From IMG/VR virus record IMGVR_UViG_3300011443_000005: a stretch of 49,419 nt of DNA. One strand, 5' to 3'. Every line of letters starts with the position of its first letter. The first letter of the stretch is position 1. The stretch is from a virus. Shown piece by piece: positions 24,275 to 49,419 of the stretch. The notes below the pieces were generated by a model. It was given only the letters and a program-made list of their open reading frames with translations. It made no database searches and had not been told where the DNA came from. A program made the translations under genes and the position numbers.

Positions 24275-24284
24275 GGGAGTAACA
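24275..24284 (+). promoter_or_regulatory. Start-associated motif GGGAGTAACA (copy 1)
   Basis: 3 nt upstream of TTG 24288. Confidence 0.6.
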
Positions 24285-24287
24285 GCC

Positions 24288-24509
24288 TTGGAATCATCCG
24301 CAGCTAAAACAAAACACGCGTATGCAATTGCAATAAGTCTCTCGTCTCTAATTTCTGACAACTGCTATCCCGAACATCTTTTGGACCCAAAAGGTAAAGC
24401 TCTTTGCAAACCAACAATGCAGCTTGCTCATCGGTTCCGAAGAGAGGCTCAAACCCTCACGAGAACCGACAAAAGGCTTTGCAAACAGTGTCTTCGCAGA
24501 GCGGTGTAA
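24288..24509 (+). CDS. Small basic protein (73 aa) with C...CxxC
   Basis: First ORF of the plus arm, with the motif-linked TTG start. Confidence 0.5.
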   Translation: MESSAAKTKHAYAIAISLSSLISDNCYPEHLLDPKGKALCKPTMQLAHRFRREAQTLTRTDKRLCKQCLRRAV

Positions 24510-24527: not shown

Positions 24528-24537
24528 AGGAGTAACA
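24528..24537 (+). promoter_or_regulatory. Start-associated motif AGGAGTAACA (copy 2)
   Basis: 4 nt (agca) before ATG 24542. Confidence 0.6.
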
Positions 24538-24541
24538 AGCA

Positions 24542-24973
24542 ATGGCGTTTATGAAACCGGAAATTTACAAAGGTGGATACTTGGTTATCGATGGACCAAT
24601 GGGTACGGAATATCTACCCCACGAGATTGCAGACATCGATAACAAAACTCTAGAGGCTTGGAATAACCAAGAAGGAAACGAGCATAACTTACCCGGTTGC
24701 ATTCGAGGCTACGTAGAGAATCACTCCGCATATTCCATCGAACGGGAAGCCGGGATTCTCTCCCGTCTCTCCGCTTCCGGCTACATGGATTCCACACCTT
24801 GGGAACCGGGGGATTCCAACGACCTATGCAAAGCTTGGGATATTTGCCCTGAGTGTTTTGAACAATGCTGGGAATCCGAAACTTCCGATCGGTGTCCCGG
24901 TTGCAATGTGTCCTACCCACAAGACTACGATGGTTGCCGCAAGGCGGGTTGCAGCAATTGCAATGGGGAGTAA
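24542..24973 (+). CDS. Cys-rich protein (143 aa)
   Basis: The C-terminal 50 aa carry CPEC, CPGC and CSNC pairs (multi-zinc-ribbon-like). Confidence 0.65.
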   Translation: MAFMKPEIYKGGYLVIDGPMGTEYLPHEIADIDNKTLEAWNNQEGNEHNLPGCIRGYVENHSAYSIEREAGILSRLSASGYMDSTPWEPGDSNDLCKAWDICPECFEQCWESETSDRCPGCNVSYPQDYDGCRKAGCSNCNGE

Positions 24974-24975
24974 CA
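24966..24975 (+). promoter_or_regulatory. Start-associated motif GGGAGTAACA (copy 3)
   Basis: Its TAA is the stop codon of 24542..24973. 4 nt (aaca) before ATG 24980. Confidence 0.65.
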
Positions 24976-24979
24976 AACA

Positions 24980-25243
24980 ATGGAACGCATCGAAAACACT
25001 ATCCATAGCAAAGCTACAAGTCTTGGCTATCCGATCATCCGGGGAAACCCTAAAAAAATCGATGGAGTTTTGTGCACTCGATTCAAGAACAAGGAAGGAC
25101 AGGCAATCTACGTAGGCCAAGATTTTGATTACGCCAGACCCAACGGCGGAAAGATCGTAGACACTTGGCTACTCTATCTTGAATGTCCTACATGCTTTTG
25201 TACGTACAAACTTAATACCGAACATACTTGCAACAGGGAGTAA
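24980..25243 (+). CDS. Small Cys/His-containing protein (87 aa)
   Basis: ORF with motif-linked start; CPTCFC...H.C near the C-terminus. Confidence 0.6.
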   Translation: MERIENTIHSKATSLGYPIIRGNPKKIDGVLCTRFKNKEGQAIYVGQDFDYARPNGGKIVDTWLLYLECPTCFCTYKLNTEHTCNRE

Positions 25244-25245
25244 CA
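25236..25245 (+). promoter_or_regulatory. Start-associated motif GGGAGTAACA (copy 4)
   Basis: Its TAA is the stop of 24980..25243. 4 nt (agca) before ATG 25250. Confidence 0.65.
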
Positions 25246-25249
25246 AGCA

Positions 25250-25738
25250 ATGCTAAACTATCTCATTGAACATGAAAATAAGACCTACTCCCCCGATGGA
25301 GTAGTAACAACCCATCCCAATTGTACAATCTGCCATAGGGTGAACGATGGTACTAAATATGTTCTGGGTTATCTACCAGCAACGAAAGAAACAATCACTT
25401 GTTGTCTGAATTGCGCAAGCACATTCGAAAGGGAAGAACTAGACAAATCTGAAAAATCTGTCTGGTATATCCTATCTAAGACACCGGATAGCGATCCTCG
25501 AAACGCATACCCGAATACTTATCCTGCTTCTGGACAATGCTGGATAGGTAATGCTATGCGTGTTAGTGGTCGATACAAGTCTCGGAGAATCCATTCCCCC
25601 ATCGGAGGAAGAATTCAGCGCATCAATGTTTGGTTTAGTCACAACGATAAACACTATCATGGTGTAAATTTAGGAGACAATAATATTGTACGATGTAAGA
25701 GAATCAAACACAAAACAACTTATGGAGTAGTAAACTAA
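25250..25738 (+). CDS. Zinc-ribbon protein (162 aa), member of a 3-gene family
   Basis: NCTICHRVNDGTKYVLGY...ITCCLNCASTF resembles the CxTC...GIRVT...CxxC..F pattern of 32416..32631 and 46258..46491. Confidence 0.6.
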   Translation: MLNYLIEHENKTYSPDGVVTTHPNCTICHRVNDGTKYVLGYLPATKETITCCLNCASTFEREELDKSEKSVWYILSKTPDSDPRNAYPNTYPASGQCWIGNAMRVSGRYKSRRIHSPIGGRIQRINVWFSHNDKHYHGVNLGDNNIVRCKRIKHKTTYGVVN

Positions 25739-25828: not shown

Positions 25829-25838
25829 GGGAGTAACA
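25829..25838 (+). promoter_or_regulatory. Start-associated motif GGGAGTAACA (copy 5)
   Basis: 4 nt (gaca) before ATG 25843, in a 104-nt intergenic gap. Confidence 0.65.
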
Positions 25839-25842
25839 GACA

Positions 25843-26619
25843 ATGAATCTCGACAAAGTAAAAGACAGAATCCGTAAACTGCTTGCTATCGCCAACGATG
25901 ATAGTTCCGCCGACGGTGAAATATCAGCGGCGATGAAACTAGCAGAGGAAGCCCTAGAGAAGTATCACTTGGATAGAGCAGATGTTGAATCCCACGCAAC
26001 AACTGAGAAACCGCATACCGAAACACACATTGTTGAGAATTGTACGTTTCACGGTAAGCGTATGACTGCTTGGGAATCTCGTCTTTGGGTTGCTGTTAAG
26101 AAGCTAGTTGGTTCAGTCGGTGCTTACTCTGCAAAAAAGATTGTACCCAATGGAACATTCAAGGTACCTGAAAAACGGGAGGTACTTTGCTGGTATGGTC
26201 CAGCAGAGGATGTAGCAATTGCAACATCCCTATTTGCTGAATGGCGACACGTTATTGCAACCCTTGCCATTGCCAAGTTTCGGGGTTTCGCCCGCAATAA
26301 TGGGGCAAGGTATGCGCTTGGCTTTGCCGAGTCTCTGGTTGATAAGGCGGGAGAAGCAGACCAAAACCGACGCAAGCTCATTACCAATGCCACAACGGCT
26401 ATCGTCCATTGTACTTTCGGCAATCTCGGACAAGTCTTAGACCGCAAGCGAGAAGCTGCAACAGAATGGCTACGTAAGGAACAAGGTGTCCGACCAACTA
26501 GAGGATCAATCCGCCGTTGTTCAATCACAAGCAACAATTACGACGCGTATGAGGCAGGTCGAACCGATGGGCGCAATGCCAATTTCTCAGTTACCCAAAG
26601 TAAAAAACTAACCCACTAA
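25843..26619 (+). CDS. DUF2786-like protein (258 aa)
   Basis: The N-terminal KVKDRIRKLLAIANDDSSADGEISAAMKLAEEALEKY matches my recollection of the DUF2786 signature common in phages and plasmids. Confidence 0.5.
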   Translation: MNLDKVKDRIRKLLAIANDDSSADGEISAAMKLAEEALEKYHLDRADVESHATTEKPHTETHIVENCTFHGKRMTAWESRLWVAVKKLVGSVGAYSAKKIVPNGTFKVPEKREVLCWYGPAEDVAIATSLFAEWRHVIATLAIAKFRGFARNNGARYALGFAESLVDKAGEADQNRRKLITNATTAIVHCTFGNLGQVLDRKREAATEWLRKEQGVRPTRGSIRRCSITSNNYDAYEAGRTDGRNANFSVTQSKKLTH

Positions 26620-27210: not shown

Positions 27211-27211
27211 T

Positions 27212-27800: not shown

Positions 27801-27801
27801 C

Positions 27802-28164
27802 TTGGCATTGGTAAACCCAACACTCTGCCTAATCGAAGGGTGCGAACGTAGAGCGGTATGCCGCAAGGTATGTTTCTACCACTACCATTTATATCGTAAC
27901 AGTGGTAGACTACAAGAGTTACCCAAAACCGGAAGAGTAAAGATACGGTTTCATACAGTCCAACTGGATAAGTTACTCATTCAAAGGGCTTATAAGTTAG
28001 ACCTCTCCCCAACAGTATTAAAATATTCCATCCTGTTTGCGGGTATGGAGAAAACCGATAAGCGATTGTTGAAGCTGGTTGAACACTTCAACAAAATGTA
28101 CCATAGTGAGACTCATGCAGCGGTTGCGTTAGCCGCTGCAATTGAAGCCTCAAAAAGGGAGTAA
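27802..28164 (+). CDS. Zinc-finger protein (120 aa)
   Basis: C..GC.R....RK.C..HY..YR.SG motif at the N-terminus, a Cys/His DNA-binding-type motif seen in phage proteins. TTG start. Confidence 0.5.
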   Translation: MALVNPTLCLIEGCERRAVCRKVCFYHYHLYRNSGRLQELPKTGRVKIRFHTVQLDKLLIQRAYKLDLSPTVLKYSILFAGMEKTDKRLLKLVEHFNKMYHSETHAAVALAAAIEASKRE

Positions 28165-28166
28165 TA
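28157..28166 (+). promoter_or_regulatory. Start-associated motif GGGAGTAATA (copy 6, one mismatch)
   Basis: Its TAA is the stop of 27802..28164. 4 nt (gaca) before ATG 28171. Confidence 0.6.
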
Positions 28167-28170
28167 GACA

Positions 28171-28485
28171 ATGACACAACAATGGAAAATTAGCAAGACA
28201 GCTACAAAGGTTTATACCGATGAATTTGGGTGGACAAGGGTTATTTATCATAACGCTTGCGTTGTAAAGTTTAATCAAGATAAGATTATCCTGTCAATGG
28301 GTGGCTGGAATACCAACACTACCCGGACAAGAATGAATCAAGCGAGTAACCAATACGGATTAGGCTTTGGCGTACACCAAAAGAAAGGTACCCCATACGT
28401 ATGTATTGGTAGTGTGGACACAGAACTGAAAACGTCCAAGCCAAATATCATTGACCGCAAAACAGGGAAAGTGAGCACACAATGA
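28171..28485 (+). CDS. Hypothetical protein (104 aa)
   Basis: Motif-linked start. The GGWNTNTTRTRMNQ block looks like a conserved small phage protein family that I cannot name. Confidence 0.6.
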   Translation: MTQQWKISKTATKVYTDEFGWTRVIYHNACVVKFNQDKIILSMGGWNTNTTRTRMNQASNQYGLGFGVHQKKGTPYVCIGSVDTELKTSKPNIIDRKTGKVSTQ

Positions 28486-29251: not shown

Positions 29252-29308
29252 TTCAGGGGTGGGGGGTTTCATCGCAGCTTAAGCGATGCCAGACCCCTTG
29301 CCCCTGAA
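29252..29308 (+). other. Long imperfect RNA hairpin (about 25 bp) between genes
   Basis: ttcagggg...cccctgaa outer stem, catcgc/gcgatg apical stem, middle section closed by G-U pairs that work only on the plus transcript. No U-tract follows. Confidence 0.5.
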
Positions 29309-29328
29309 ATACAGCAGGAATTTAGAAT

Positions 29329-30119: not shown

Positions 30120-30136
30120 TCCCTTTCAACAAAACC

Positions 30137-31603: not shown

Positions 31604-32004
31604 TATTTATACTCCACACCAAAGGCAGTAAAGGTTAGATCAGCTAGGTTCGCGGTGAAGACAACCAGTTCATGTCTAGGATACAAACTCAAACCGCTAA
31701 TAAACATTGGGTTACCTGGGTCTACCGGTTGATCAAACAAAAAGACTTGAGCACTAGCTTGATCTCCTGAGTCATTAGCTATTGTTCCCATTTTGAAGGT
31801 TCTTCTTACGGAACCAATGTTGCAGACCAGGATTAAACCTATTTCGATGGTTTGGTTTACTTGAGCAAGAATGAAGGAATACCAGTTTGCAGTAGGAACA
31901 CGAAGAGCAGTCGCATTAGCGGAAGAAAGAGCACCGACAGTGCCAGACTGCCCTACCGAACTTGATCCCGGAATTCCACCACCACCAGCCATGCAGGAAT
32001 TCAA
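31603..32004 (-). CDS. Cassette gene 1: hypothetical protein (133 aa; 129 aa if ATG 31992)
   Basis: First ORF downstream of the leftward promoter at 32170..32199. No clear SD for either the TTG 32004 or ATG 31992 start. Confidence 0.5.
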   Translation of the reverse strand: MNSCMAGGGGIPGSSSVGQSGTVGALSSANATALRVPTANWYSFILAQVNQTIEIGLILVCNIGSVRRTFKMGTIANDSGDQASAQVFLFDQPVDPGNPMFISGLSLYPRHELVVFTANLADLTFTAFGVEYK

Positions 32005-34100: not shown

Positions 34101-34387
34101 AAATGTTAATAGCGGAACATAGTATCGCTTGGTATCTCACGCAACCAGACGGTGCAAGAGTGGTGATTCTAGAATTACCGACAAGACCAAAAAATCGTAC
34201 TGATGTTTCCGCCAAACTACCCCAACAGTTTTTTGATGACATCCACAGAGCAATGACAAGGACGTTAGGCTATGCTGAAGAACTCAAAGCAATCAAAGAC
34301 GCTATCGCAGACTGCGAAGACACAACTTCCATCGACCTTGGAAAAGGCTACACTTGTACCTGCAAGTGTCATAAACCTATCGGGTAA
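34094..34387 (+). CDS. Hypothetical protein (97 aa)
   Basis: 7-nt overlap with the nuclease stop. C-terminal CTCKCH. Confidence 0.5.
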   Translation: MLEMLIAEHSIAWYLTQPDGARVVILELPTRPKNRTDVSAKLPQQFFDDIHRAMTRTLGYAEELKAIKDAIADCEDTTSIDLGKGYTCTCKCHKPIG

Positions 34388-36512
34388 ACCCACAATCCTT
34401 TGCTTCGGTGAGACTCCAGGAATAGAGGATGTCCAGGAGGGACAAGCATTCGCTGGACGAGCAGGGAAGCTGCTTCGGAAACTCATCACCCTGCACCTGC
34501 CCCATTGCCGTGTTGTCCTCGACAACGTGTGTCCCGAAGTCCTGGCCGGGGGACATGGCAAACCCAACGCGGATATTCTCAAGAAGTACAAAGCCTACAG
34601 AGAAGAATCCGTAACCACTTGGCAACCCTCTGTGATTGTCCTGGTTGGGGCTTACGCGATGAACACAGCGGGTCTGCGGGGTACTGCTGGAATTGTTCGC
34701 CGAAATGCAACCACCGTACTTTACCACGGCAGACCGGCGGTGCTTTCTGTTCATCCAGCCTATGTGCTCCGCAATCCAGCGGAAATCAAACTACTTCGTA
34801 GAGTTTTTGAAATCGTGGAGGCGGAATTAAGAGGCGGAAAGGAAGTCCAAGCTCCCCGATCACGCAATGGGCTGACCTTGAATATTTCAGCAAGTTTAGA
34901 CCTGGAAACAGAAGGACTGAACCCAAGGGGGGGACGAATACTTACTGCTGCAATGAGTAGTAAGAAGCAAACAACTTGGATAGCTGCACCAACACTAGAT
35001 ACTATACAACTTTCTCCTAAACCCGTTATCTTCCACAACGGCAAGTTTGATATGGCTTGGTTGCAGACACACGGTTTTCAATTGCCCGCAAGTGTGGAAG
35101 ATACCCTTATCATAGCTTGGCTAATTGACGAGAATGATAAGAAAGACCTAGGTACACTTGCACAACGATACTTAGGTGTTCCCGCGTGGTGGCTGGACAT
35201 CGATCTGAAACACACAACTGAATTACCTACAGAAGTATTAGGTAAGTATAATGCTCTTGATGCACACTATACTTACCAACTGCGGAATAAACTTTGGCCG
35301 GAACTTACCAAACAACAACAACAGCTTTGTACTGACGTTCTCTTCCCCATGACAAAGCTTTTGGCAGAGATGGAATGCCGGGGGTTCAAAGTTGACGGCA
35401 CAGTATTTGAGAAAATTTGTACTAACAACCAGAAGTTAATAAAGCAGCAGGAAAAGAAACTCCGATCCAAGTACGGAGAAGAAATTAACTTTCGTTCAAC
35501 TACCGATTTGAAAGAGTTGGTCTATGGCAAACTCGATTATAAAGTGGGTGGACTAACCAAGGCCAAACAACCCGCTGTTGACGCTGACACATTGAGAAAG
35601 ATTTCTCCCAAACTCGCGGACTTGGCCGATTACCGTTGGCAATTGTGGTTTGAGTCCAATGTAGCTAAAGGTTGGGCGAAGCGAATTACCTCTCAAGGTT
35701 TTTTGCACACGAATTACAACTTTGGTCATGTTGTTACGGGTCGGTTAAGTTCGTCCAATCCGAACATGCAAAATGTGGATCGGGATGGGGTTCAACGTCT
35801 TTGCCTTGTTTCTCGGTTTCCTCGTGGGAAGATTATTCAATACGATTACAAAGCCCACGAGTACCGGATTAAGGCTGCCGAAGCAGGAGAGACAAAGCTT
35901 CTTAAACAACTATCCGATTCGTCCTTTGACCCACACGAGGAAACACGAACGTTGCTCCGTACCAAGTATGAGATTGTTGTAGATAGGCCGAGAGCAAAAA
36001 ATGTGAACTTCTCCGTAATCTACGGAATTAGCCCTCACGGTTTGTTCGGAAAGTATGAAATACCAATTAAAGATGGGCAGTTAATTATACCTGCTTGGTA
36101 TAAACTCTACCCAAGAATCAAGGCACACAATGATTTAATTCTGAAAAACTATGAAGAGAAACGAGAGGTTGAGTCGATATTTGGTTGGAAGAGAAGATTC
36201 AAACCTGTTGAGTTGGTAGATTTGGGAAGTCGCAAGTTTGATGCACACCAGCGGAATCAAGCATTGAACTTTGGAACACAGAACGCAGCAGTAGTGATCT
36301 GCTACATGGGAATGTTAGCACTTGATCGCTGGCTGACAAGACACCGAATGAAGAGTATCATTATCCACCAGATACACGACTCTGTTGTGGTAGACGCACA
36401 CCCGAAAGAAGTAAAGGCCCTGGAAAGAGAAGTTCCAGAAGTGTTGACAAATCTGAAACTACCAATGAGGATTCCTTTAGCTGTGGAGGCTAAAGTCGGG
36501 GACACCCTGTAG
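34272..36512 (+). CDS. polA: Family-A DNA polymerase with 3'-5' exonuclease and an N-terminal UDG-like (family 4/5-type) domain
   Basis: UDG motifs GETPGIED..G.AFAGRAGKLL and SVHPAYVLR. Exo motifs LDLETEGL, HNGKFD, YNALDAHY. Pol motifs DYKAHEYR, RAKNVNFSVIYG, IHQIHDSVVVD. The true start may be downstream of 34272 (116-nt overlap with the previous ORF). Confidence 0.9.
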   Translation: MLKNSKQSKTLSQTAKTQLPSTLEKATLVPASVINLSGKPTILCFGETPGIEDVQEGQAFAGRAGKLLRKLITLHLPHCRVVLDNVCPEVLAGGHGKPNADILKKYKAYREESVTTWQPSVIVLVGAYAMNTAGLRGTAGIVRRNATTVLYHGRPAVLSVHPAYVLRNPAEIKLLRRVFEIVEAELRGGKEVQAPRSRNGLTLNISASLDLETEGLNPRGGRILTAAMSSKKQTTWIAAPTLDTIQLSPKPVIFHNGKFDMAWLQTHGFQLPASVEDTLIIAWLIDENDKKDLGTLAQRYLGVPAWWLDIDLKHTTELPTEVLGKYNALDAHYTYQLRNKLWPELTKQQQQLCTDVLFPMTKLLAEMECRGFKVDGTVFEKICTNNQKLIKQQEKKLRSKYGEEINFRSTTDLKELVYGKLDYKVGGLTKAKQPAVDADTLRKISPKLADLADYRWQLWFESNVAKGWAKRITSQGFLHTNYNFGHVVTGRLSSSNPNMQNVDRDGVQRLCLVSRFPRGKIIQYDYKAHEYRIKAAEAGETKLLKQLSDSSFDPHEETRTLLRTKYEIVVDRPRAKNVNFSVIYGISPHGLFGKYEIPIKDGQLIIPAWYKLYPRIKAHNDLILKNYEEKREVESIFGWKRRFKPVELVDLGSRKFDAHQRNQALNFGTQNAAVVICYMGMLALDRWLTRHRMKSIIIHQIHDSVVVDAHPKEVKALEREVPEVLTNLKLPMRIPLAVEAKVGDTL

Positions 36513-36634: not shown

Positions 36635-36644
36635 AGGAGTAACA
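36635..36644 (+). promoter_or_regulatory. Start-associated motif AGGAGTAACA (copy 7)
   Basis: 3 nt (gca) before ATG 36648. Confidence 0.6.
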
Positions 36645-36647
36645 GCA

Positions 36648-36899
36648 ATGGAAAGTGTACGAGTCGAATTGTCAATCAAACCGGTTGGAGGATTCCTGGG
36701 GGTAACCCTTTCCGCAGCGGTGGAGACTACCCTTGGGGCGAAGGAGACACACGCCCAAGCCTTGAAACGTGCAGAGAAAACCGCTCTTGACTATCTCGAA
36801 AAGACAAAGAGCATGGACAACTTACAAGACTTGACGATAAAAGCTGCCCATAGCTTGAAGCGTGTGGCTGAAGAAGAGGGCTTAGTCCGTGGTCGATAG
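36648..36899 (+). CDS. Hypothetical protein (83 aa from ATG 36648)
   Basis: Motif-linked ATG. The track ORF starts at TTG 36621. Confidence 0.55.
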   Translation: MESVRVELSIKPVGGFLGVTLSAAVETTLGAKETHAQALKRAEKTALDYLEKTKSMDNLQDLTIKAAHSLKRVAEEEGLVRGR

Positions 36900-42103: not shown

Positions 42104-42903
42104 TAAGTAATATCATACCGTGGTTTGAGCTATCAGGAGCACCGAACCAACCATACCCCAATAGCACACCACCAATAAATTATCGGGGGTACGCTATCAA
42201 AGGTGCGGAGGCATGGAAACAACACACTGGTTGCAATACAGTCTGTGTTACTACCGGCTGCTCCGAAGCACATTTGACCAGTCTTCGAGGAATATCCTTT
42301 TGGCCAATAAACCTTATTCCGAGTGTGAAACTCCACACCGCTGATAAGTTTATTGAAAAGGGAGGAATCCTATCTGAAGAGCTTTGGGACAATTTGGCAA
42401 CTTGGTTATCAGGTGAAGCTGACCACAGGTCTTGTTCCCTGCTAATAGAGGGAGAAACAGCATTCTCAAACTTCCACCAAGGAAAAGAAGAGATTGACTA
42501 CCAACAGTTTTCAGACTTGATTTCCGTTTTGCAGGAAGTGGCCTGTACTATCCTTTGGTATCCAATACAAATTTTACCCAATTCCAAAACCGCACCAAAC
42601 CGATTGGCCAGCACGACGAAACTCGTGCGGACTATTGCAGAAGCGGTGCCGAACAGTAAATTTGTAGCGGGATACTCGCCGGGGGATGACCTGCAACTGA
42701 ATGCCGGATTGATACGTTCGGTGGGCAGGGATAGAATCCTCCCCTGCATGGAGGTTAACGTCCCAGCAGGTAAGTATTATGCACCAAAAGATGTAAGTTT
42801 TGAAATGGGTAAGAGAGCAACGGAGAAGATGTTGGTTCACATCACGCACAGTAAGTGGTTGGAACTGGCTGAACACCCAGATTGGAAAGGACAACAAGAA
42901 TGA
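42100..42903 (+). CDS. Hypothetical protein (267 aa)
   Basis: Long ORF coupled to both neighbours by ATGA overlaps. No motif recognised. Confidence 0.65.
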   Translation: MISNIIPWFELSGAPNQPYPNSTPPINYRGYAIKGAEAWKQHTGCNTVCVTTGCSEAHLTSLRGISFWPINLIPSVKLHTADKFIEKGGILSEELWDNLATWLSGEADHRSCSLLIEGETAFSNFHQGKEEIDYQQFSDLISVLQEVACTILWYPIQILPNSKTAPNRLASTTKLVRTIAEAVPNSKFVAGYSPGDDLQLNAGLIRSVGRDRILPCMEVNVPAGKYYAPKDVSFEMGKRATEKMLVHITHSKWLELAEHPDWKGQQE

Positions 42904-43433
42904 CAATGCAAGCACAAAACATTCCCGCGATTGATTGGGGTAACTCCTTGATTTTCCGTAAATCAGGAGCCATTGCAGCATACACACCAAAGAATCAAAC
43001 TTTGGTGGAATACCCCGGACCTGAATTCCGACACCCAAGGGTGGGACCAACGTATGAACAACAGAACAATGAGATTGTCTGGTATCTACGTTGGCCGGGG
43101 TTTGATCCCTTTACCGGAGAAGCATTCCAGGATTCATATCCTGCTCTCATCTGTTCTGGTATCGGAGAACTGTCTGGGCCGCATGTCTTTGAAGGTGTTC
43201 AAAATGCAGGAGAACTAATCTCCATGAGCAACATTCCTTTTTCTGCGGCTGAGTTTCTCCCTCTCACACCGGAGAAGCGAAGGGTTGGAATGATTATCAG
43301 CGTAACCCCGGCTATGTGGGCAACCAAGGACGACATTCTTAACAATCGTTGGAACACTATGCGGGTTCCAATTATGGGTGCTGTGGGTCAACAGAACGTA
43401 TTGAGTATCACCGTTGGGCGATACACTGTCTAG
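42900..43433 (+). CDS. Hypothetical protein (177 aa from ATG 42900)
   Basis: ATGA overlap with the upstream stop. The track ORF starts at 42882. Confidence 0.6.
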   Translation: MTMQAQNIPAIDWGNSLIFRKSGAIAAYTPKNQTLVEYPGPEFRHPRVGPTYEQQNNEIVWYLRWPGFDPFTGEAFQDSYPALICSGIGELSGPHVFEGVQNAGELISMSNIPFSAAEFLPLTPEKRRVGMIISVTPAMWATKDDILNNRWNTMRVPIMGAVGQQNVLSITVGRYTV

Positions 43434-43447
43434 AAAAGGAATAGGGA

Positions 43448-43651
43448 ATGCTGGTACTATCACGGAAGGAACACGAGGAGATTAAAATTGGTGATGACAT
43501 TACTGTTTCCGTTTTGGAAATTCGAGGAGACAAGGTCAGAATTGGCGTTACCGCACCTCCAGATGTCTTGGTAGACCGTAAAGAAATTCGGACACGCAAA
43601 GAAAAGGAAAAGCAGAATGAAGATGTGGAAAATCTTCCTACTGATGGTTAG
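43448..43651 (+). CDS. csrA: CsrA/RsmA-family RNA-binding translational regulator (67 aa)
   Basis: MLVLSRKEHEEIKIGDDITVSVLEIRGDKVRIGVTAPPDVLVDRKEI aligns along its length with the canonical MLILTRR.GE...IGD.V.V.VL...G..VRIG..AP..V.V.R.EI. Confidence 0.85.
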   Translation: MLVLSRKEHEEIKIGDDITVSVLEIRGDKVRIGVTAPPDVLVDRKEIRTRKEKEKQNEDVENLPTDG

Positions 43652-43967
43652 TCTGTTTGGTATCGGTGTTGCTGGCTGTGCATCTGCTGCCAAGTTCACG
43701 CCGGAACAACAGCAGAGTATACAGGCTGTGGCGGGTATCCTGGTAAAGGTTGCTCAGGAAACCAATACTCATGCTGTTGCTCGTATTCGTCTAGTTCCGG
43801 CTGAGTTTTATGCGAAGCAATCCTTCGGAATGTCTGGGATTGAGGCAGAGCTATACCTCTCTGCCAATCCCGCAGATCAGGATTCTCTGGTTACCAGCAC
43901 ACCTATGATGGTTGTCCAGACCAGTAAGGGACCAGCAGTTGTGCCTGTCCCCAAGGAGGAACCTTGA
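43617..43967 (+). CDS. Lipoprotein (116 aa)
   Basis: Signal peptide with lipobox VAGC (MKMWKIFLLMVSLFGIGVAGC). Overlaps the csrA 3' end by 35 nt. Confidence 0.6.
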   Translation: MKMWKIFLLMVSLFGIGVAGCASAAKFTPEQQQSIQAVAGILVKVAQETNTHAVARIRLVPAEFYAKQSFGMSGIEAELYLSANPADQDSLVTSTPMMVVQTSKGPAVVPVPKEEP

Positions 43968-44272
43968 ACGTAGAACCCATTGGAAATAAGATTTTCGTAG
44001 AACGTGAAGAAGCTCAGTCTGTTACTGAGGGCGGTATTCATCTGCCAGAGAAAGCCAAAGAGCTTCCTTGTCGTGGGGAAGTGCTGGCTGTCGGTCCCGG
44101 ACAACTGATGGAGAGTGGAAGCCGTCACATTCTTCAAATTCAAAAAGGGAACAAAGTACTCTTCCCCAGCTACGCTGGGACGGAAGTAACCCTCAGCGGT
44201 ACGTTGAACACTCCGGGAGAGAGAAAATATCTCATCATGGATGAAGCAGATGTATTGTGTATTCTGCGATAG
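43964..44272 (+). CDS. groES: GroES/Cpn10 co-chaperonin homologue (102 aa)
   Basis: PIGNKIFVEREEAQSVTEGGIHLPEKAKE.P.RGEVLAVGPG...KGNKVLFPSYAGTEV...YLIMDEADVL follows the GroES pattern including the mobile loop. TTG start overlaps the upstream stop. Confidence 0.85.
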   Translation: MNVEPIGNKIFVEREEAQSVTEGGIHLPEKAKELPCRGEVLAVGPGQLMESGSRHILQIQKGNKVLFPSYAGTEVTLSGTLNTPGERKYLIMDEADVLCILR

Positions 44273-44307
44273 TAGTTTGTCGTCAAGTACGAGCGACACC
44301 TTGCTCT

Positions 44308-44502
44308 ATGGCGCCTCACGTACCCTGGCAGGTATACGCGCGGGGCGGAGTGGTGTGGCAGTTCGGAGAGACGAACATTTACGGAGATGTCCTGAACTAT
44401 TTTGTGAGGCGCCGTAGTAACACGCGAGCGCCGCAACGGTTGCGACACCTGCGAGCCGACGCCGGTGATACGGTCCTGATTGTCTTCGGACTATACAGTT
44501 GA
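44308..44502 (+). CDS. Doubtful small ORF (64 aa) in the GC-rich island
   Basis: ATG without an SD. It contains hairpin copy 1. The region may instead be non-coding RNA. Confidence 0.3.
   Translation: MAPHVPWQVYARGGVVWQFGETNIYGDVLNYFVRRRSNTRAPQRLRHLRADAGDTVLIVFGLYS
44345..44376 (+). other. Conserved element copy 1: GCGGAGTGGTGTGGCA plus hairpin GTTCG-GAGAGA-CGAAC
   Basis: Aligned by eye with 44522..44553 (13/16 identical 5' bases, identical loop, compensatory stem changes). Confidence 0.5.
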
Positions 44503-44521
44503 CTCCGATCCTGGGACAGCG

Positions 44522-44553
44522 GCGAAGTGGTGTGACGGCCGGGAGAGACCGGC
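44522..44553 (+). other. Conserved element copy 2: GCGAAGTGGTGTGACG plus hairpin GCCGG-GAGAGA-CCGGC
   Basis: Ends 18 nt upstream of ATG 44572. See copy 1. Confidence 0.5.
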
Positions 44554-44571
44554 AAAAATTGAAAGGCGAAA

Positions 44572-44892: not shown

Positions 44893-44900
44893 GTGCGTAA

Positions 44901-44979
44901 GCCCCGTCGGCGTGGTGGGACACGTACCCGGCACCACAAACAGGTGCCCGGCATTGCGGTTCGAATCCGGCACGGGGCA
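44901..44979 (+). ncRNA. tRNA-like element (non-canonical; likely not a standard decoding tRNA)
   Basis: Perfect 7-bp acceptor stem (GCCCCGT/ACGGGGC), 4-bp D stem with a GG loop, canonical GGTTCGAATCC T-loop. But the anticodon arm is 9 bp with loop ACAAACA (no U33), the T stem has only 3 bp, and U8/A14 are absent. Confidence 0.4.
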
Positions 44980-45076
44980 ATACTAGATGCGTGCGTAAAA
45001 GCGCCCTCGTCAAGGCGAGAAGCCAGGGTGAGAGGGGCGGGACGACGTAAACCGCCCGGATGGATGAGAAGGTGCT

Positions 45077-45292
45077 ATGCTTCAGCCGTTCATCGCGAGG
45101 CTCTGCGTGGGCTGTGTCGAGAGGCTGAAGCTCCCCGTTTTCGTATCGGGCCAAGCGTTGCCAAAACCCGGAGACGCAATCCCCATCGTGTATCTAGCCA
45201 GGGTGGGCGAGCTAGAGTTCCAGGGGCGATGCCGGACGTGTAACGATTTGGTAGTGGTGCGAGGACCGGGTGTTCACAAATTCGATCAGTAA
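45077..45292 (+). CDS. Small zinc-ribbon protein (71 aa) in the GC-rich island
   Basis: GAGAAGG SD; CVGC...CRTC pairs. Confidence 0.45.
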   Translation: MLQPFIARLCVGCVERLKLPVFVSGQALPKPGDAIPIVYLARVGELEFQGRCRTCNDLVVVRGPGVHKFDQ

Positions 45293-45310
45293 GCTGCTAA
45301 GAAGTTGACC

Positions 45311-46827: not shown

Positions 46828-49419
46828 GCAATGCAGGATCAATACCAATTAATTGCTCCGCTTCGGATGAAAGAGCCGCTTGTACCATCTGAGCAAACAT
46901 TGGGCGTTGAGCTTCAGGAAGAGCTTCAAAGACTCGTGCGAGCTTTGGAACATTTTGGCGAAGACGGATTGCTTGAATGTCCTGGGGCTTTACCTGGATG
47001 TCCAGACCTGGATACCGCTGTTTGAATTCCCCACGAATGGAAACAGCTTTCTTAATATCGTTGTCGTCAAAGGCTGCTTCCAGATACATTCTCTTATAGC
47101 CACGAATCTGTTCAGCTTGCTTGGTAATGTAATATTGAAGTTCCTGCTCCTTCTTAATATCTGTGTTGCCGCCAGGAAGAAGACCCAAAGCCTCTGCATA
47201 TAACTGTGTGGGGGTAACGTAACCAATCAATGCACCCTTGGGATCACGCATAGCAATCCGTCCATCCGGTGCTGGCTGTGTATAATCCGCGTACTTCTTG
47301 GCAACTAACGGAGCAACAGAGGGAGCAAAGGCGGTAGCTGCTCTAGAAGCAGCAACACCACCAGGAACCAGCAGAGGTAATTGCCGCTTGAAAGACCCCT
47401 CTTCCCCAAAGAGAGCAGCAGCAGGAAGAGACAATGCTGGGGGAACAAATGGGAAGGGATAGAATGGAGCATCCTTGTATGGGTACGGCAATGCTCCAGG
47501 CATGAGAGAGCCGGAAAGATCAAGCCCAAGGGACTTCCCACCCTCGTAAGTTACTGCTGAAGCAAGTAAAGCTCTACCCATTGTCCCTAGATTGCGTCCC
47601 AAGACGTTCTGAGCACCCGAACCTAATTCCTGGGCTGGACCCATGAGGAAGCCGAGATAACGCATTGGGAAGCGTAGGAACTGGCTTGTGAGTGGCCCTG
47701 CGTTGGCCAGGAGGGCAGGCATATTCTCTGGGCCGGTGAGGAACTGTGTCGCTTCCACGACACGTCTCGCTATCGGGACAGTTTCAGCAACACTTAAGCC
47801 CTCACGAGCACCACGAGCGAGAGTACCTTCGAACGCGGAAAGCCGGTTGAAAGCCTCTGTTGCTTGAAACAGACTCATCATACCCGCTTTAATTCGATCC
47901 ACCTTGGTAGGCTTATGTCCCAACAAAGCAGACTGCTTCCATGCGTTACCAAGAATGGAACCAACTGATCCACCAGCTAATGCTTCTTCTGTTAGTGGTG
48001 TTACTGCTAGTCCTTCTTTAACAAACTCAGGAAAACTACGTAGCAATGCTTGATCGTGAGTTAGCCCTGAACCTCTAGACTTAAAATACTCTGGAGCTTT
48101 CTTTAGGACATTACCCATTCCCTCCAAAGTTCCCCTAAGACCTATGGTAGGAACAGTGGTTAACACCGATTGCGTTAGGTTATAAAACGCACTAACCGGA
48201 TTCGCACCCAAAGCTCCCAGGTAAAGATGAGAAGCAATCTTTCCATTGAGATTCTTGAGATTAAATATTCCCCTGTCTTCTTTCAATCGCTCCGTAAACC
48301 AGCCTTTAAGCTCAGTGGGTAGCAATTTACCAATAGGGCCAGATTCAATCTGTTGTATGGCCCCATACTTTAAGTCTGACCAATGTGCGGAAGCAATGAA
48401 TTGTTTATATGTTTGCCTACCAAGAGCAACAGGCACAAAGGTGTCCCGAAGCATTTTGGCACGGATGATGTTGTGTGGTTTAGCAGAAGACTCTAATGCT
48501 TCGGCAGCTTGAAGAATGTCTCGTCCATGCCCCTTAACTGTCCAACCAAAAGCTCTAGCGTTGGAGTGGAGATATGCGGAAGAGACAGTATTGAAGTCTA
48601 AACTATACGGAAGAACCTTTGAAGAGGATTGGAGCCTGCTTGTAATTCTTGAAGGCAATGTAGGATCAAGCAGGTATTCTTTGATACGTTCCAAGTCTTT
48701 TGGATCAGGGAGCATCTTCCCACGTTTGAGAAGGGCATGAGGACTACTTACCGCACCAGCAGCGGAATAAGCCAGTCTGCCCGAAGCTGCTTCCGATGGT
48801 GGAACACCCCGCATCAGGAATTGAGCCTCATCACGAATATCAGAGAGATACCCACGAGAAACCATTTCAGGAAAATAGTGTTCCTGCTTTCTAATCAGAT
48901 TGGTGGAGAAGCCTGCATTGTTAAGTTGTTCAAGCACCTGTCGTTTAATGGCGGATTGCTTGGCAAGGACTTTTCTAACAAGCTCCGGTCTGGTACGGGA
49001 AGGTAGTTTTGCCAATTCTTCAAATTGGCGAAGGCCAATCCTTGCTTCCTGAGTAGCCTGAAGTAAGGCTCGTTGTTCCACAGAACCATAAACTTTTGAC
49101 CAGACATTATTGAAAGTGCTCCTTGCATCTTTTGTAAGAGTATCAAATGCTGGACCCAATTGAATAGGTTTGGTGATTTTCCCCTCCCAACCCTTTAGAC
49201 GAGCAATAAGAAGAGTTCCCAGCTTCTTATTAAATTCCTGGCCGGAAGCAGCTTCATACTTTGTAATGGCAGAGCCTAGAGCGACAGCGTGTTCTGTCCA
49301 GAAACCCTCAACTTCCCGAAGCAGACTTTTATAGGTTGTGGGCAGATCACTCTTTCCAGCAGGTAAAGCATGATAGATGTCGTCAAAGCTACCAAAAACA
49401 GAAGTACGAAGCATTCCAA
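46727..49419 (-). CDS. Large virion-associated protein (895 aa from ATG 49414; about 993 aa if it starts at GTG 412 across the junction)
   Basis: Longest late-arm ORF. The central region is rich in Gly/Ala/Leu hydrophobic segments. The ejection, core or tape-measure-like role is inference from size and position. Confidence 0.7.
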   Translation of the reverse strand, partial: GMLRTSVFGSFDDIYHALPAGKSDLPTTYKSLLREVEGFWTEHAVALGSAITKYEAASGQEFNKKLGTLLIARLKGWEGKITKPIQLGPAFDTLTKDARSTFNNVWSKVYGSVEQRALLQATQEARIGLRQFEELAKLPSRTRPELVRKVLAKQSAIKRQVLEQLNNAGFSTNLIRKQEHYFPEMVSRGYLSDIRDEAQFLMRGVPPSEAASGRLAYSAAGAVSSPHALLKRGKMLPDPKDLERIKEYLLDPTLPSRITSRLQSSSKVLPYSLDFNTVSSAYLHSNARAFGWTVKGHGRDILQAAEALESSAKPHNIIRAKMLRDTFVPVALGRQTYKQFIASAHWSDLKYGAIQQIESGPIGKLLPTELKGWFTERLKEDRGIFNLKNLNGKIASHLYLGALGANPVSAFYNLTQSVLTTVPTIGLRGTLEGMGNVLKKAPEYFKSRGSGLTHDQALLRSFPEFVKEGLAVTPLTEEALAGGSVGSILGNAWKQSALLGHKPTKVDRIKAGMMSLFQATEAFNRLSAFEGTLARGAREGLSVAETVPIARRVVEATQFLTGPENMPALLANAGPLTSQFLRFPMRYLGFLMGPAQELGSGAQNVLGRNLGTMGRALLASAVTYEGGKSLGLDLSGSLMPGALPYPYKDAPFYPFPFVPPALSLPAAALFGEEGSFKRQLPLLVPGGVAASRAATAFAPSVAPLVAKKYADYTQPAPDGRIAMRDPKGALIGYVTPTQLYAEALGLLPGGNTDIKKEQELQYYITKQAEQIRGYKRMYLEAAFDDNDIKKAVSIRGEFKQRYPGLDIQVKPQDIQAIRLRQNVPKLARVFEALPEAQRPMFAQMVQAALSSEAEQLIGIDPALLTQPKRLPEYYQTWMKPETSGIEQQLQQQFGSR
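49297..49419. repeat. Terminal direct repeat, copy B (identical to 1..123)
   Basis: See copy A. Confidence 0.95.

What the first reader, a model, noticed from the sequence alone, without database searches (positions are those of the whole stretch)
43448..43651. Phage-encoded CsrA, possibly the reader of the GGA-containing start-associated leaders
The 67-aa product aligns over its whole length with bacterial CsrA/RsmA, including the GxxVRIG.xAP core. CsrA represses translation by binding GGA motifs at or near SD sequences. Every start-associated sequence in this genome presents (A)AGGGAG/AAGGAG followed by an invariant TAACA, close to the A(N)GGA-type preference. A phage CsrA made from the distal part of the arm could shut off the proximal early genes as a block, or reprogramme the host Csr regulon (motility, biofilm, carbon storage). 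The homology is solid. The circuit is my hypothesis.
Basis: partly seen in the sequence, partly recalled or inferred. Interest (0 to 1): 0.7.

Follow-up and report, generated by a model that had tools for sequence, protein, structure and literature searches.

The report
Phage-borne CsrA RNA-binding regulator gene
A small gene in a new, uncultured 49-kb bacteriophage really does encode a CsrA-type RNA-binding regulator, but phages carrying such genes are already documented, and nothing in the sequence ties this protein specifically to the repeated leader found in front of the phage's first genes.

Summary
ORF 43448-43651 (+) encodes an intact 67-aa CsrA/RsmA protein: Pfam 75.7 bits against a cutoff of 27, TIGR00202 above its cutoff, the top 15 PDB fold matches all CsrA/RsmA/RsmE, and every key RNA-binding residue present. 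It lies in a complete circular 49,296-bp tailed-phage genome with no close relatives.

Phage csrA is a known kind. PHROGs has a 'CsrA-like regulator' family, 81 GenBank phage records carry one, and three papers survey or test such genes.

The proposed circuit is not supported, though it is not refuted.
- The GGAGTAAYA..CAATG leader is real (12 hits against 1 expected) but precedes only 7 of about 67 genes.
- Its GGA is just the Shine-Dalgarno core, which 50 of 66 genes have.
- It shows no hairpin-loop presentation and no match to the high-affinity Rsm consensus.
- TAACA is not a known CsrA determinant.
- The nearest relative has its own repeated early leader but no csrA at the syntenic site.

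The best internal candidate target is csrA's own start region: 5 GGAs in 42 nt, the most of all 66 genes.

Most likely this is an accessory, lytic-cycle regulator that plugs into the host Csr network and represses itself. It is a new member of a known kind, of low-to-moderate interest.

The parts
43448..43651 (+). csrA coding sequence (67 aa, ATG start, TAG stop)
   Evidence: CsrA by HMM, PDB sequence, predicted fold and conserved residues. The N-terminus MLVLSR is invariant in 57 homologues, which fixes the start codon.
43438..43479 (+). csrA translation-initiation region with five GGA triplets (43438, 43445, 43464, 43468, 43477). The first is in the SD (AAGGAA) and the second abuts the ATG. 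It is a candidate autoregulatory site.
   Evidence: 5 GGAs in -25..+35, rank 1 of 66 genes (next best 3, median 1); only 1 of 92 other csrA genes reaches 5 (mean 1.4-1.7). Inference only. As a raw cluster it is not exceptional genome-wide (null).
42900..43433 (+). Upstream ORF (177 aa, no family hit). It ends 14 nt before the csrA ATG, so csrA has no room for its own promoter.
43617..43967 (+). Downstream ORF (116 aa) with a lipoprotein-type signal peptide (..GIGVAGC). It overlaps the last 35 nt of csrA.
   Evidence: no family hit. The lipobox was read directly from the translation.
43964..44272 (+). Phage co-chaperonin GroES/Cpn10, the last gene of the tightly packed block that contains csrA
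   Evidence: PF00166; phrog_3188 E=6.5e-21.
24275..24290 (+). Leader copy 1, GGGAGTAACAGCC-TTG, before the uncalled 73-aa ORF 24288-24509 (first gene of the + arm).
24528..24544 (+). Leader copy 2, AGGAGTAACAAGCA-ATG (gene 24542-24973)
24966..24982 (+). Leader copy 3, GGGAGTAACAAACA-ATG (gene 24980-25243)
25236..25252 (+). Leader copy 4, GGGAGTAACAAGCA-ATG (gene 25250-25738)
25829..25845 (+). Leader copy 5, GGGAGTAACAGACA-ATG (gene 25843-26619, DUF7168)
28157..28173 (+). Leader copy 6, GGGAGTAATAGACA-ATG (gene 28171-28485). It has TAATA, not TAACA.
36635..36650 (+). Leader copy 7, AGGAGTAACAGCA-ATG (gene 36648-36899, between polA and gp32)

Best explanation
ORF 43448-43651 is a genuine, intact member of the CsrA/RsmA family. 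It is carried as an accessory (non-core) gene in the replication or 'middle' arm of a complete, novel 49.3-kb tailed phage of unknown host.

Shown: family membership, fold, retention of the RNA-contacting residues, location inside a tightly packed co-directional gene block with no room for its own promoter, and absence from the syntenic region of the only detectable relative.

Inferred from established CsrA biology: the protein forms a domain-swapped dimer that binds GGA triplets in or near Shine-Dalgarno sequences and blocks ribosome loading.

Most likely role: it is made with the replication genes during lytic growth and acts mainly on host transcripts and host Csr/Rsm components. That would add extra CsrA activity and reprogramme motility, biofilm, carbon-storage and possibly defence genes, as proposed or shown for other phage and ICE CsrAs. 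It probably also damps its own synthesis through the five GGAs around its own start codon.

The GGAGTAAYA..CAATG leaders of the first genes are best read as a separate, SAS-like strong ribosome-binding signal: GGAG, then an unstructured A/C-rich 8-9-nt spacer, then ATG. They are not a dedicated CsrA operator.
For: Identity: HMM and PDB sequence; AF2 pLDDT 82.3, strands plus a C-terminal helix; top 15 PDB fold hits all CsrA/RsmA/RsmE, TM 0.6-0.77, rmsd about 2 A, then a drop to E>1. L2, L4, R6, V40, V42, R44, E46 and I47 are conserved; K7 matches B. subtilis CsrA.

Phage and completeness.

Accessory status: L101 keeps PDDEXK-PolA/UDG-gp32-DnaB in order, but its + arm ends two ORFs after DnaB. 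Fifteen other csrA-bearing viral contigs share nothing else with this phage, which indicates independent acquisitions.

Operon context: a 14-nt gap upstream and a 35-nt overlap downstream. No integrase hit on any called gene, so expression is lytic-cycle rather than moron-style.

Host-directed precedent: deleting bci, the CsrA-domain gene of phage AUS531phi, changes infectivity, QS genes, motility, biofilm and pyocyanin (PMC7546807). Phage RsmA homologues correlate with hosts that have RsmA and are proposed to suppress CRISPR-Cas (PMC8450108). An ICE-borne CsrA-like protein reprogrammes Legionella (bioRxiv 10.64898/2026.02.27.708469).

Autoregulation: 5 GGAs in the csrA TIR, rank 1 of 66 genes, and unusual among 92 other csrA genes. 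E. coli CsrA represses its own translation (own knowledge, Yakhnin et al. 2011).

Leaders as a generic RBS: the GGA is slightly more unpaired than in other leaders (0.60 against 0.46), the spacer is a fixed 8-9 nt, and the genes are not paralogues. Similar repeated leaders occur without csrA in L101 and L107.
Against: The host is unknown. CsrA, GroES and TerL gave no taxonomic signal, so whether the host has a Csr system cannot be checked, and no host target can be named.

No binding was or can be tested here.

The autoregulation cue is post hoc. Three of the five GGAs lie in codons for conserved residues (R6-K7-E8 and E10-E11), and 5 GGAs per 50-60 nt is within the genome-wide null.

A(N)GGA at the SD is significantly commoner on the csrA-bearing + arm (20/36) than on the late arm (6/30, p=0.005). 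That is what a phage-directed role would predict.

The protein belongs to a minority variant (D43/R48/K51) whose RNA specificity is untested and could differ from the canonical one.
Confidence: 0.55

Rival explanations
1. The phage CsrA is a RegA-like temporal repressor. It is made from the distal transcription unit, binds the conserved GGAGTAAYA..CAATG leaders of the first + arm genes (plus 28171 and 36648), and shuts off their translation as a block.
For: A 16-nt element spanning exactly SD to start codon is shared by 7 non-paralogous genes and is concentrated on the first five genes of the arm. That is the layout of a translational operator, as for T4 RegA on about 30 TIRs (PMC3014915). Six of the 7 copies fit A(N)GGA. 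Five of 6 have a second GGA 10-63 nt away, against 25 of 60 other genes (p=0.08). csrA lies 19 kb downstream, beyond a minus-strand island, so it is probably expressed later. The function of SAS-type motifs is still open (PMC3203893).
Against: The GGA is not specific to these leaders: 50 of 66 genes have one at the SD. There is no conserved hairpin presenting the GGA (1 of 6 in a loop) and no CANGGANG match in any leader. Conservation lies 3' of the GGA, where CsrA has no known base-specific requirement, while the 5' flank is variable. Other csrA phages lack the motif. Relatives or analogues (L101, L107) have repeated leaders without csrA nearby. The densest GGA cluster at any start is csrA's own, not an early gene's.
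Confidence: 0.12
2. A generic phage-directed switch. CsrA accumulates during the middle phase and broadly lowers translation of + arm (early and middle) genes through their AAGGA-type SDs, its own included. This frees ribosomes for late genes, whose SDs fit the CsrA preference less often. The TAACA motif plays no special role.
For: A(N)GGA at -22..-1 occurs in 20 of 36 + arm genes against 6 of 30 minus-arm genes (Fisher p=0.005). GGA at -20..-1 occurs in 32 of 36 against 18 of 30 (p=0.009). csrA's own TIR is the most GGA-rich.
Against: The arm bias may simply reflect stronger SDs on small early genes and translational coupling in the structural operon. Single GGA-in-SD sites without a hairpin or a second site are low-affinity CsrA targets (established knowledge). 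The relative L101 manages without csrA at that locus. There is no precedent for a phage CsrA acting on phage mRNAs in the papers read.
Confidence: 0.12
3. Antagonist or decoy. The variant protein (D43/R48/K51, highly charged helix) does not act as a repressor itself. Instead it titrates host sponge RNAs or a protein partner (FliW/CesT-like), or forms inactive heterodimers with host CsrA, and so shifts host CsrA activity.
For: Three co-varying substitutions lie in or next to the C-terminal helix, a surface used by FliW and CesT in solved complexes (5dmb and 5z38 are among the fold hits). All five members of this variant that were examined sit in phage-like replication modules. The Legionella ICE paper lists titration and antagonism as options.
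Against: All RNA-contacting residues are intact, which argues for direct RNA binding. Position 43 varies across cellular CsrAs too (H/F/Y/L/D). No partner gene or sponge RNA was found in the phage: Rfam found nothing, the non-coding gaps are not significantly structured, and there is no FliW Pfam hit.
Confidence: 0.08
4. Passenger gene. This is a recently captured bacterial csrA with no selected function in the phage.
For: It lies in a variable cargo region that is absent from the nearest relative.
Against: The ORF is intact, has invariant family residues and is tightly integrated in an operon with overlapping neighbours. It is at most 71% identical to anything in 5.8 billion proteins and 45-62% identical to cellular genes, so the capture is not recent. 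An identical protein was recovered from several independent assemblies. It belongs to a variant repeatedly found in phage-like contexts.
Confidence: 0.05

Closest known systems
CsrA/RsmA family of bacterial post-transcriptional regulators (E. coli CsrA; P. aeruginosa RsmA, PDB 1VPZ/7YR6; P. protegens RsmE, PDB 2JPP; B. subtilis CsrA)
   Same: Same domain over residues 1-59. Same fold. Same N-terminal MLxLxR, GxxVRxG..AP core and R44/E46/I47 RNA-binding segment. Similar size (67 aa).
   Different: Only about 50% identical to solved members. H43->D, Y48->R and I51->K, a co-varying minority variant found in 13 of the 120 best hits. Acidic unaligned tail. Encoded by a phage. No cognate sponge RNA or FliW detected in cis.
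Phage-encoded CsrA-like regulators (PHROG phrog_9500 and phrog_5527; RsmM-type or 'Bci' proteins of P. aeruginosa siphophages such as AUS531phi and phi297; Vibrio, Burkholderia and other phages)
   Same: A CsrA domain on a tailed-phage genome. It matches phrog_9500 at E=5.5e-21. Eighty-one GenBank phage records carry a homologue. The kind was surveyed in PMC7366521 and PMC8450108 and tested genetically in PMC7546807.
   Different: No nucleotide or protein similarity of the rest of the genome to any GenBank phage. tblastn identity to GenBank phage CsrAs is 40-62% over residues 1-43 only. Bci is 123 aa on a temperate phage with an integrase. This protein is 67 aa, no integrase hit was found in the phage, and the gene is embedded in the replication-gene operon.
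CsrA paralogues on ICEs and plasmids (Legionella CsrT/Lpp0168, Pseudomonas RsmQ/RsmH/RsmE on plasmids, S. meliloti pMBA19a)
   Same: A mobile-element-borne extra CsrA thought to hijack or tune the host Csr network or the element's own genes.
   Different: A different type of element (virulent-looking phage against a conjugative element). No conjugation genes here.
T4 RegA translational repressor
   Same: The concept: a small phage protein encoded in the replication cluster that competes with ribosomes at the TIRs of many early mRNAs (PMC3014915).
   Different: Unrelated fold and sequence. RegA operators are A/U-rich and poorly conserved, whereas here the candidate operator is a sharply conserved 16-mer. 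No evidence that CsrA reads it.
Start-associated sequences (SAS) of Cluster K mycobacteriophages
   Same: A short asymmetric repeat that contains the SD core. It lies a few nt upstream of mostly ATG starts of a subset of unrelated non-structural genes, in one orientation, restricted to the non-structural arm, with function unknown (PMC3203893).
   Different: A different sequence (GGGATAGGAGCCC against GGAGTAAYARNCA). Fewer copies (7 against about 10-20 per genome). No upstream inverted-repeat 'extended SAS' was noted. Cluster K phages are not reported to encode CsrA.

Membership tests
CsrA/RsmA (PF02599 / TIGR00202) | Sequence match to the family profile above the curated threshold | tested here: met
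   PF02599 75.7 bits (cutoff 27), covering 1-50 of 53 profile positions. TIGR00202 70.8 (cutoff 70.1). NF002469 72.5 (cutoff 73, marginally below).
CsrA/RsmA (PF02599 / TIGR00202) | Small (about 55-75 aa) protein with five beta-strands followed by a C-terminal alpha-helix, superposable on solved CsrA structures | tested here: met
   AF2 model, mean pLDDT 82.3, strands 11-14/18-26/29-35 plus helix 45-61. Foldseek top 15 hits are all CsrA/RsmA/RsmE, TM 0.6-0.77, rmsd about 2 A. Beta1 and beta5 are not assigned in the monomer model, as expected for strands that pair across the dimer.
CsrA/RsmA (PF02599 / TIGR00202) | RNA-binding residues of regions 2-7 and 40-47 (L2, L4, R6, R/K7, V40, V42, R44, E46, I47; R44 the most critical) | tested here: met
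   All are present, with K7 as in B. subtilis. The list of critical residues comes from my own knowledge of the Mercante et al. 2006 alanine scan and the 2JPP complex.
CsrA/RsmA (PF02599 / TIGR00202) | Domain-swapped homodimer | not testable with these tools
   Only monomer prediction is available. The dimer is inferred from homology.
CsrA/RsmA (PF02599 / TIGR00202) | Binds GGA motifs (ideally in hairpin loops) and alters translation or stability of target RNAs | not testable with these tools
   No binding assay is possible. Candidate sites were only counted.
CsrA/RsmA (PF02599 / TIGR00202) | Antagonist partner (CsrB/RsmZ-type sponge RNA or FliW). This is a usual companion, not strictly defining. 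| tested here: inconclusive
   None in the phage. Rfam found nothing at E<=1. Non-coding gaps have z=-1.9 and -1.5 and no arrays of GGA loops. No FliW Pfam hit on any called gene. A partner would normally be host-encoded, and the host is unknown.
Phage-encoded CsrA-like regulators (phrog_9500) | Match to the PHROG profile | tested here: met
   phrog_9500 E=5.5e-21, 1-60 of 65. Also phrog_5527 at 2.8e-17 and phrog_31572 at 7.9e-15.
Phage-encoded CsrA-like regulators (phrog_9500) | Encoded on a bona fide phage genome | tested here: met
   TerL phrog_38 E=7e-33. gp32, PolA+UDG, DnaB and PDDEXK. Circular 49,296-bp assembly.
Phage-encoded CsrA-like regulators (phrog_9500) | Affects host Csr-controlled phenotypes and phage infectivity (as shown for Bci) | not testable with these tools
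   Precedent only (PMC7546807). The host of this phage is unknown.
   Seven copies of GGAGTAAYA(R)NCA-ATG/TTG, five of them on the first five + arm genes. The genes are not paralogues.
   GGA in an MFE hairpin loop in 1 of 6. No CANGGANG match. The 5' flank is variable. The GGA is shared with 50 of 66 SDs. A second GGA 10-63 nt away in 5 of 6, not significant at p=0.08.
   Only one distant relative was found. It has neither this motif nor csrA in the 22 kb seen, but it has its own repeated leader. Fifteen csrA-bearing contigs lack the motif. IMG/VR holds no multi-copy carrier that is related.
Start-associated sequences (Cluster K mycobacteriophage type) | A short asymmetric repeat containing the SD core, 3-9 nt upstream of the starts of a subset of non-structural genes, in one orientation | tested here: met
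   compared with the description in PMC3203893. This is a resemblance of kind only, since the sequences differ.

The most novel reading that the evidence does not exclude
The phage CsrA belongs to a phage-associated variant (D43/R48/K51). That variant may have been retuned to recognise the phage's own SD-to-start leader (GGAGUAACARNCA-AUG). It would then act as a RegA-like timer that switches off the first genes of the infection. This would be the first CsrA shown to regulate a virus's own programme, and the first protein reader assigned to a SAS-type motif.
Probability: 0.1. Interest if true: 0.75.

Novelty: new member of a known kind. Interest (0 to 1): 0.3.

Why it matters
Phage-borne CsrA genes are a recognised but mechanistically almost unexplored way for viruses to reach into a global post-transcriptional network of their hosts. 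That network controls motility, biofilm, carbon storage and CRISPR-Cas.

This example adds a very divergent, complete phage genome in which csrA is embedded in the lytic replication operon, not carried as a lysogenic-conversion moron. It also belongs to a sequence variant that, in all five cases examined, sits in phage-like replication modules.

If the self-targeting idea were true, it would give a protein reader for start-associated sequences, whose function has been open since 2011. It could be tested entirely in vitro with recombinant protein and synthetic RNAs, even though the host is uncultured. As the evidence stands, the gene is an ordinary representative of its kind.

Tried and rejected
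1. Sponge RNA or FliW partner in cis. Rfam at E<=1 found nothing, and ARAGORN found nothing. The two GC-rich non-coding gaps after groES are not significantly structured and have no arrays of GGA loops. No FliW Pfam hit. Rejected as far as these tools can detect.

2. Hairpin-loop presentation of the leader GGAs: not seen.

3. Enrichment of the high-affinity consensus CANGGANG: none, 31 against 25.7 +/- 5.9.

4. Genome-wide GGA clusters. csrA's TIR is not exceptional as a raw cluster (the null maximum is 5-8 per 60 nt); it is exceptional only among TIRs.

5. A conserved GGA-rich TIR as a general csrA property: no.

6. Leaders conserved through gene duplication: rejected, because there is no paralogy.

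7. Relatives for a co-occurrence test.
   - megablast against GenBank phages gave nothing.
   - DnaB and the DUF7168 protein against IMG/VR gave nothing.
   - PolA found one relative at 34% identity.
   - A leader 17-mer scan of IMG/VR gave 39 single-copy hits, about the chance level.

8. Host identification via CsrA, GroES, TerL and cluster names: all uninformative.

9. D43/R48/K51 as a strictly viral signature. Not strict: 2 of 15 viral and 3 of 82 genome-contig CsrAs in a biased sample have D43, and position 43 varies widely.

10. The tRNA-like element at 44903-44979 as a real tRNA. Rejected by ARAGORN and Rfam, and its MFE structure is a single long hairpin.

11. Promoter and terminator scans to define operons: at noise level.
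Full report
OBSERVATION. The window holds an ATG-initiated ORF at 43448-43651 (+) encoding 67 aa, MLVLSRKEHEEIKIGDDITVSVLEIRGDKVRIGVTAPPDVLVDRKEIRTRKEKEKQNEDVENLPTDG. It matches Pfam CsrA (PF02599) at E=2.8e-21, 75.7 bits against a gathering score of 27. It passes NCBIfam TIGR00202 (70.8 against 70.1) and narrowly misses NF002469 (72.5 against 73). It aligns to solved RsmA/CsrA/RsmE chains at E=1e-13 to 1e-10 over residues 1-58. An AlphaFold2 model built on 57 homologues is confident (mean pLDDT 82.3). Its 15 best PDB fold matches are all CsrA/RsmA/RsmE (TM 0.6-0.77, about 2 A), after which scores collapse to noise. The residues that the alanine scan and the RsmE-RNA structures implicate in GGA recognition are all present (L2, L4, R6, V40, V42, R44, E46, I47; the list is from my own knowledge), and K7 matches B. 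subtilis CsrA. The invariant N-terminus MLVLSR fixes the start codon. The last 8 or so residues do not align, are low-confidence, and are encoded where the next gene overlaps.

WHAT THE ELEMENT IS. Window bases 1-123 repeat at 49297-49419, and the same sequence occurs as 49,437-bp k141 contigs in several assemblies. The genome is therefore circular or terminally redundant, at 49,296 bp. It has a minus-strand structural arm with a large terminase (phrog_38, E=7e-33). It also has a plus-strand arm with PDDEXK nuclease, a UDG-PolA fusion, gp32, a DnaB-type helicase, an HTH protein, CsrA, a lipoprotein-like ORF and GroES. Most genes have no family hit. There is no megablast hit to 50,697 GenBank phages. 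TerL is 21% identical to its best cultured match, and the closest polymerase in 5.8 billion proteins is 34% identical. No integrase hit was recorded. The host could not be inferred: cellular CsrAs are 45-62% identical and spread over Planctomycetota, Treponema, Pseudomonadales, Verrucomicrobiota and others, and GroES was uninformative.

CONTEXT OF csrA. The gene starts 14 nt after the stop of the upstream ORF. Its last 35 nt overlap the next ORF (43617-43967), which has a lipoprotein signal with a VAGC lipobox, and groES follows directly. It is therefore an internal member of a long co-directional block downstream of dnaB, not a self-contained moron. A four-gene minus-strand island (29769-31992) splits the plus arm into at least two transcription units. 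The first genes (24288-29772) and csrA are in different units. Consensus promoter and terminator scans were at noise level.

IS A PHAGE csrA NEW? No. PHROGs holds a 'CsrA-like regulator' family that this protein hits at 5.5e-21. tblastn finds homologues in 81 GenBank phage records, mostly Pseudomonas and Vibrio phages, annotated as carbon storage regulator, global regulatory protein or 'bacteriophage control infection protein'. Sobrero and Valverde 2020 counted 30 of 2,517 phage genomes (PMC7366521). Campa et al. 2021 surveyed GenBank and IMG/VR, found that phage and host RsmA co-occur, and proposed host manipulation, including CRISPR-Cas suppression (PMC8450108). Ambroa et al. 2020 deleted the CsrA-domain gene bci from a P. 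aeruginosa phage and saw changes in infectivity, quorum-sensing genes, motility, biofilm and pyocyanin (PMC7546807). A 2026 preprint shows an ICE-borne CsrA-like protein reprogramming Legionella. Fifteen IMG/VR contigs carrying related CsrAs share no other protein with this phage, which fits repeated independent capture.

THE LEADER MOTIF. AGGGAGTAACA with at most one mismatch occurs 12 times against 1.05 expected, and 0 of 100 shuffles reach 12. Aligned on start codons, the conserved unit is GGAGTAAYA(R)NCA-ATG: the SD, a fixed 8-9-nt A/C-rich spacer, and the start codon. It precedes six called genes (24542, 24980, 25250, 25843, 28171, 36648) and an uncalled 73-aa TTG ORF at 24288. That makes the first five genes of the plus arm plus two later ones, or 7 of about 67 genes. 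One copy has TAATA. The seven products are unrelated (no blastp E below 0.07), so the leader is a shared signal and not a relic of duplication. In kind it resembles the start-associated sequences of Cluster K mycobacteriophages, whose function is still unknown (PMC3203893).

DOES CsrA READ THE MOTIF? I tested what sequence analysis can test.
(i) Specificity. A GGA lies at -20..-1 in 50 of 66 genes, because it is the SD core, so the motif leaders are not singled out.
(ii) Presentation. The GGA falls in an MFE hairpin loop in 1 of 6 motif leaders against 6 of 44 others. There is no conserved stem, and the 5' flank is variable.
(iii) Consensus. CANGGANG is not enriched (31 against 25.7 +/- 5.9), and no copy lies in a motif leader.
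(iv) Paired sites. A second GGA 10-63 nt away occurs in 5 of 6 motif leaders against 25 of 60 others, p=0.08.
(v) Co-occurrence. No other csrA-bearing locus has the motif. IMG/VR has only single, chance-level copies of the 17-mer, and none is in a relative.
(vi) The sole true relative, L101, has PDDEXK-PolA/UDG-gp32-DnaB in the same order at 28-34% identity. Its plus arm ends two ORFs after DnaB, with no csrA or groES there. It nevertheless has its own repeated early leader, AGGAGAATGA[A/G]ATG, 4-5 times.
(vii) An unrelated contig, L107, puts TTTAACAACTRGGAGTAACAAC..ATG before two genes, with no csrA in the 12.5 kb seen.
Together these make the motif look like a strong, unstructured ribosome-binding signal, or the operator of some unidentified factor. 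They give no specific reason to assign it to CsrA. They do not exclude that assignment: 6 of 7 copies fit A(N)GGA.

WHAT WOULD CsrA BIND IN THE PHAGE? Two observations point elsewhere. First, csrA's own initiation region carries five GGAs in 42 nt, at 43438, 43445, 43464, 43468 and 43477. The first is in the SD and the second abuts the ATG. This is the highest count of all 66 initiation regions (next best 3, median 1), and it is unusual among csrA genes in general: only 1 of 92 others reaches 5, and the mean is 1.4-1.7. E. coli CsrA represses its own translation (own knowledge), so autoregulation is a reasonable inference. It is post hoc, however, and three of the GGAs lie in codons for conserved residues. 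Second, A(N)GGA at the SD is commoner on the plus arm (20 of 36) than on the late arm (6 of 30; p=0.005). This leaves room for a diffuse phage-directed effect, though stronger SDs on small early genes would explain it equally well.

PARTNERS. No Rfam family at E<=1 and no tRNA or tmRNA were found. The GC-rich non-coding gaps after groES (44273-44571 and 44893-45310) are not significantly structured (z=-1.9 and -1.5) and lack CsrB/RsmZ-like arrays of GGA loops. No FliW hit was recorded. Any antagonist would have to be host-encoded.

A VARIANT WORTH NOTING. The protein has D43, R48 and K51 where most CsrAs have H, Y and I. These three states co-vary in 13 of the 120 best homologues. All five members whose context I examined lie among small co-directional ORFans next to DnaB, RusA, DNA ligase or an integrase, which are phage-like replication modules. 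The signature is not strictly viral, and position 43 varies widely across cellular CsrAs, so this is a lead and not a finding.

VERDICT. The homology claim is correct, and the gene is a bona fide phage-encoded CsrA. That makes it a new member of a known kind. The most likely function, by precedent and context, is lytic-cycle manipulation of the host Csr/Rsm network, with probable self-repression. Confidence in that composite reading is about 0.55, while identity alone is above 0.95. It could be tested in vitro with recombinant protein and synthetic leaders, comparing wild-type, GGA-mutant and TAACA-scrambled RNAs with the csrA TIR. Interest is 0.3.

Noticed in passing
window 44900-44980 (+); L105 8027-8049 (-): This is a tRNA-like element in a GC-rich non-coding gap: a 7-bp acceptor-like stem GCCCCGT/ACGGGGC, a GGTTCGAATCC T-loop motif, and a 6-bp stem with a 7-nt loop. 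ARAGORN and Rfam call nothing. The MFE structure is one long, stable hairpin (-42.2 kcal/mol, z=-2.9, 0 of 200 shuffles as stable). The exact 23-mer CGGTTCGAATCCGGCACGGGGCA recurs in one otherwise unrelated IMG/VR contig, where it forms a canonical T-arm plus a 3' acceptor strand. It could be a shared attP-like core (the 3' end of one host tRNA gene) or a D-arm-less tRNA-like RNA. No integrase was found in the window.
   Followed up: partly
window 44273-44571 and 44893-45310 (+): Two non-coding gaps with raised G+C (about 0.52 in the 44-46 kb window, against about 0.46 elsewhere) lie just downstream of csrA-lipoprotein-groES. Overall folding is not significant (z=-1.9 and -1.5). Gap 1 holds two similar small hairpins with a GGAGAGAC core, at 44365 and 44542. 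The 8-mer occurs 5 times in the window against 1.65 expected.
   Followed up: partly
window 43617-43967 (+): This 116-aa ORF overlaps the csrA 3' end by 35 nt and has a lipoprotein signal peptide (MKMWKIFLLMVSLFGIGVAGC..). It has no family hit. It could be a superinfection-exclusion lipoprotein or an o-spanin-like protein.
   Followed up: no
window 43964-44272 (+): This is a phage-encoded GroES/Cpn10 (PF00166; phrog_3188 E=6.5e-21) directly after the csrA block. Only 9 homologues were found at E<=1e-8, and the closest is 46% identical.
   Followed up: partly
window 1-123 and 49297-49419: An exact 123-nt terminal duplication means the window is a circularly permuted, complete 49,296-bp genome. 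The 895-aa minus-strand ORF at the window's end is really a 993-aa gene that starts at window position 412.
   Followed up: yes
window 29769-31992 (-), repeats at 31100-31560: A four-gene minus-strand island interrupts the plus arm. Its 303-aa ORF (30692-31603) contains three 195-nt-spaced direct repeats (62-76% identical), which implies a repeated protein domain. It has no family hit.
   Followed up: no
window 24288-24509 (+) and 22547-22789 (-): Two probable genes were missed by the public gene calls. One is a 73-aa TTG-start ORF preceded by the leader motif, the first gene of the plus arm. The other is an 80-aa strongly hydrophobic ORF in the 22.5-23.0 kb gap, which may be a holin or another membrane protein.
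   Followed up: no
window 22858-22868 (+), 23678-23688 (-), 8866-8876 (-): Three motif copies are not in front of called genes. The one at 22858 directly follows a GGTACC..10 nt..GGTACC palindromic hairpin in the divergent control region. The one at 23688 (TAATA variant) precedes only a 13-codon mini-ORF.
   Followed up: partly
L101 3004-4578 (+); L107 411 and 635 (+): Other phages also have private repeated leaders on small early genes: AGGAGAATGA[A/G]ATG 4-5 times in the closest relative, and TTTAACAACTRGGAGTAACAAC..ATG twice in an unrelated contig. Repeated SD-plus-spacer leaders on early genes may be a commoner phage feature than the Cluster K SAS literature suggests.
   Followed up: partly
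window 43448-43651; L103 8001-8189; L104 1067-1267; L145 4081-4272; L146 1858-2070: In this CsrA sequence variant, D43, R48 (or H/W) and K51 (or R) co-vary, in 13 of the 120 best hits. All five contexts examined are phage-like replication modules, next to DnaB, RusA, DNA ligase or an integrase. The variant is not strictly viral in a wider, biased sample.
   Followed up: partly
window 34272-36512 (+): The DNA polymerase A is fused to an N-terminal uracil-DNA-glycosylase-family domain (PF03167+PF01612+PF00476). The same architecture is shared by the distant relatives P0122 to P0136.
   Followed up: no
whole window, gene starts: The two arms differ in ribosome-binding sites. A GGA lies at -20..-1 in 32 of 36 plus-arm genes against 18 of 30 minus-arm genes (p=0.009), and A(N)GGA in 20 of 36 against 6 of 30 (p=0.005).
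   Followed up: yes
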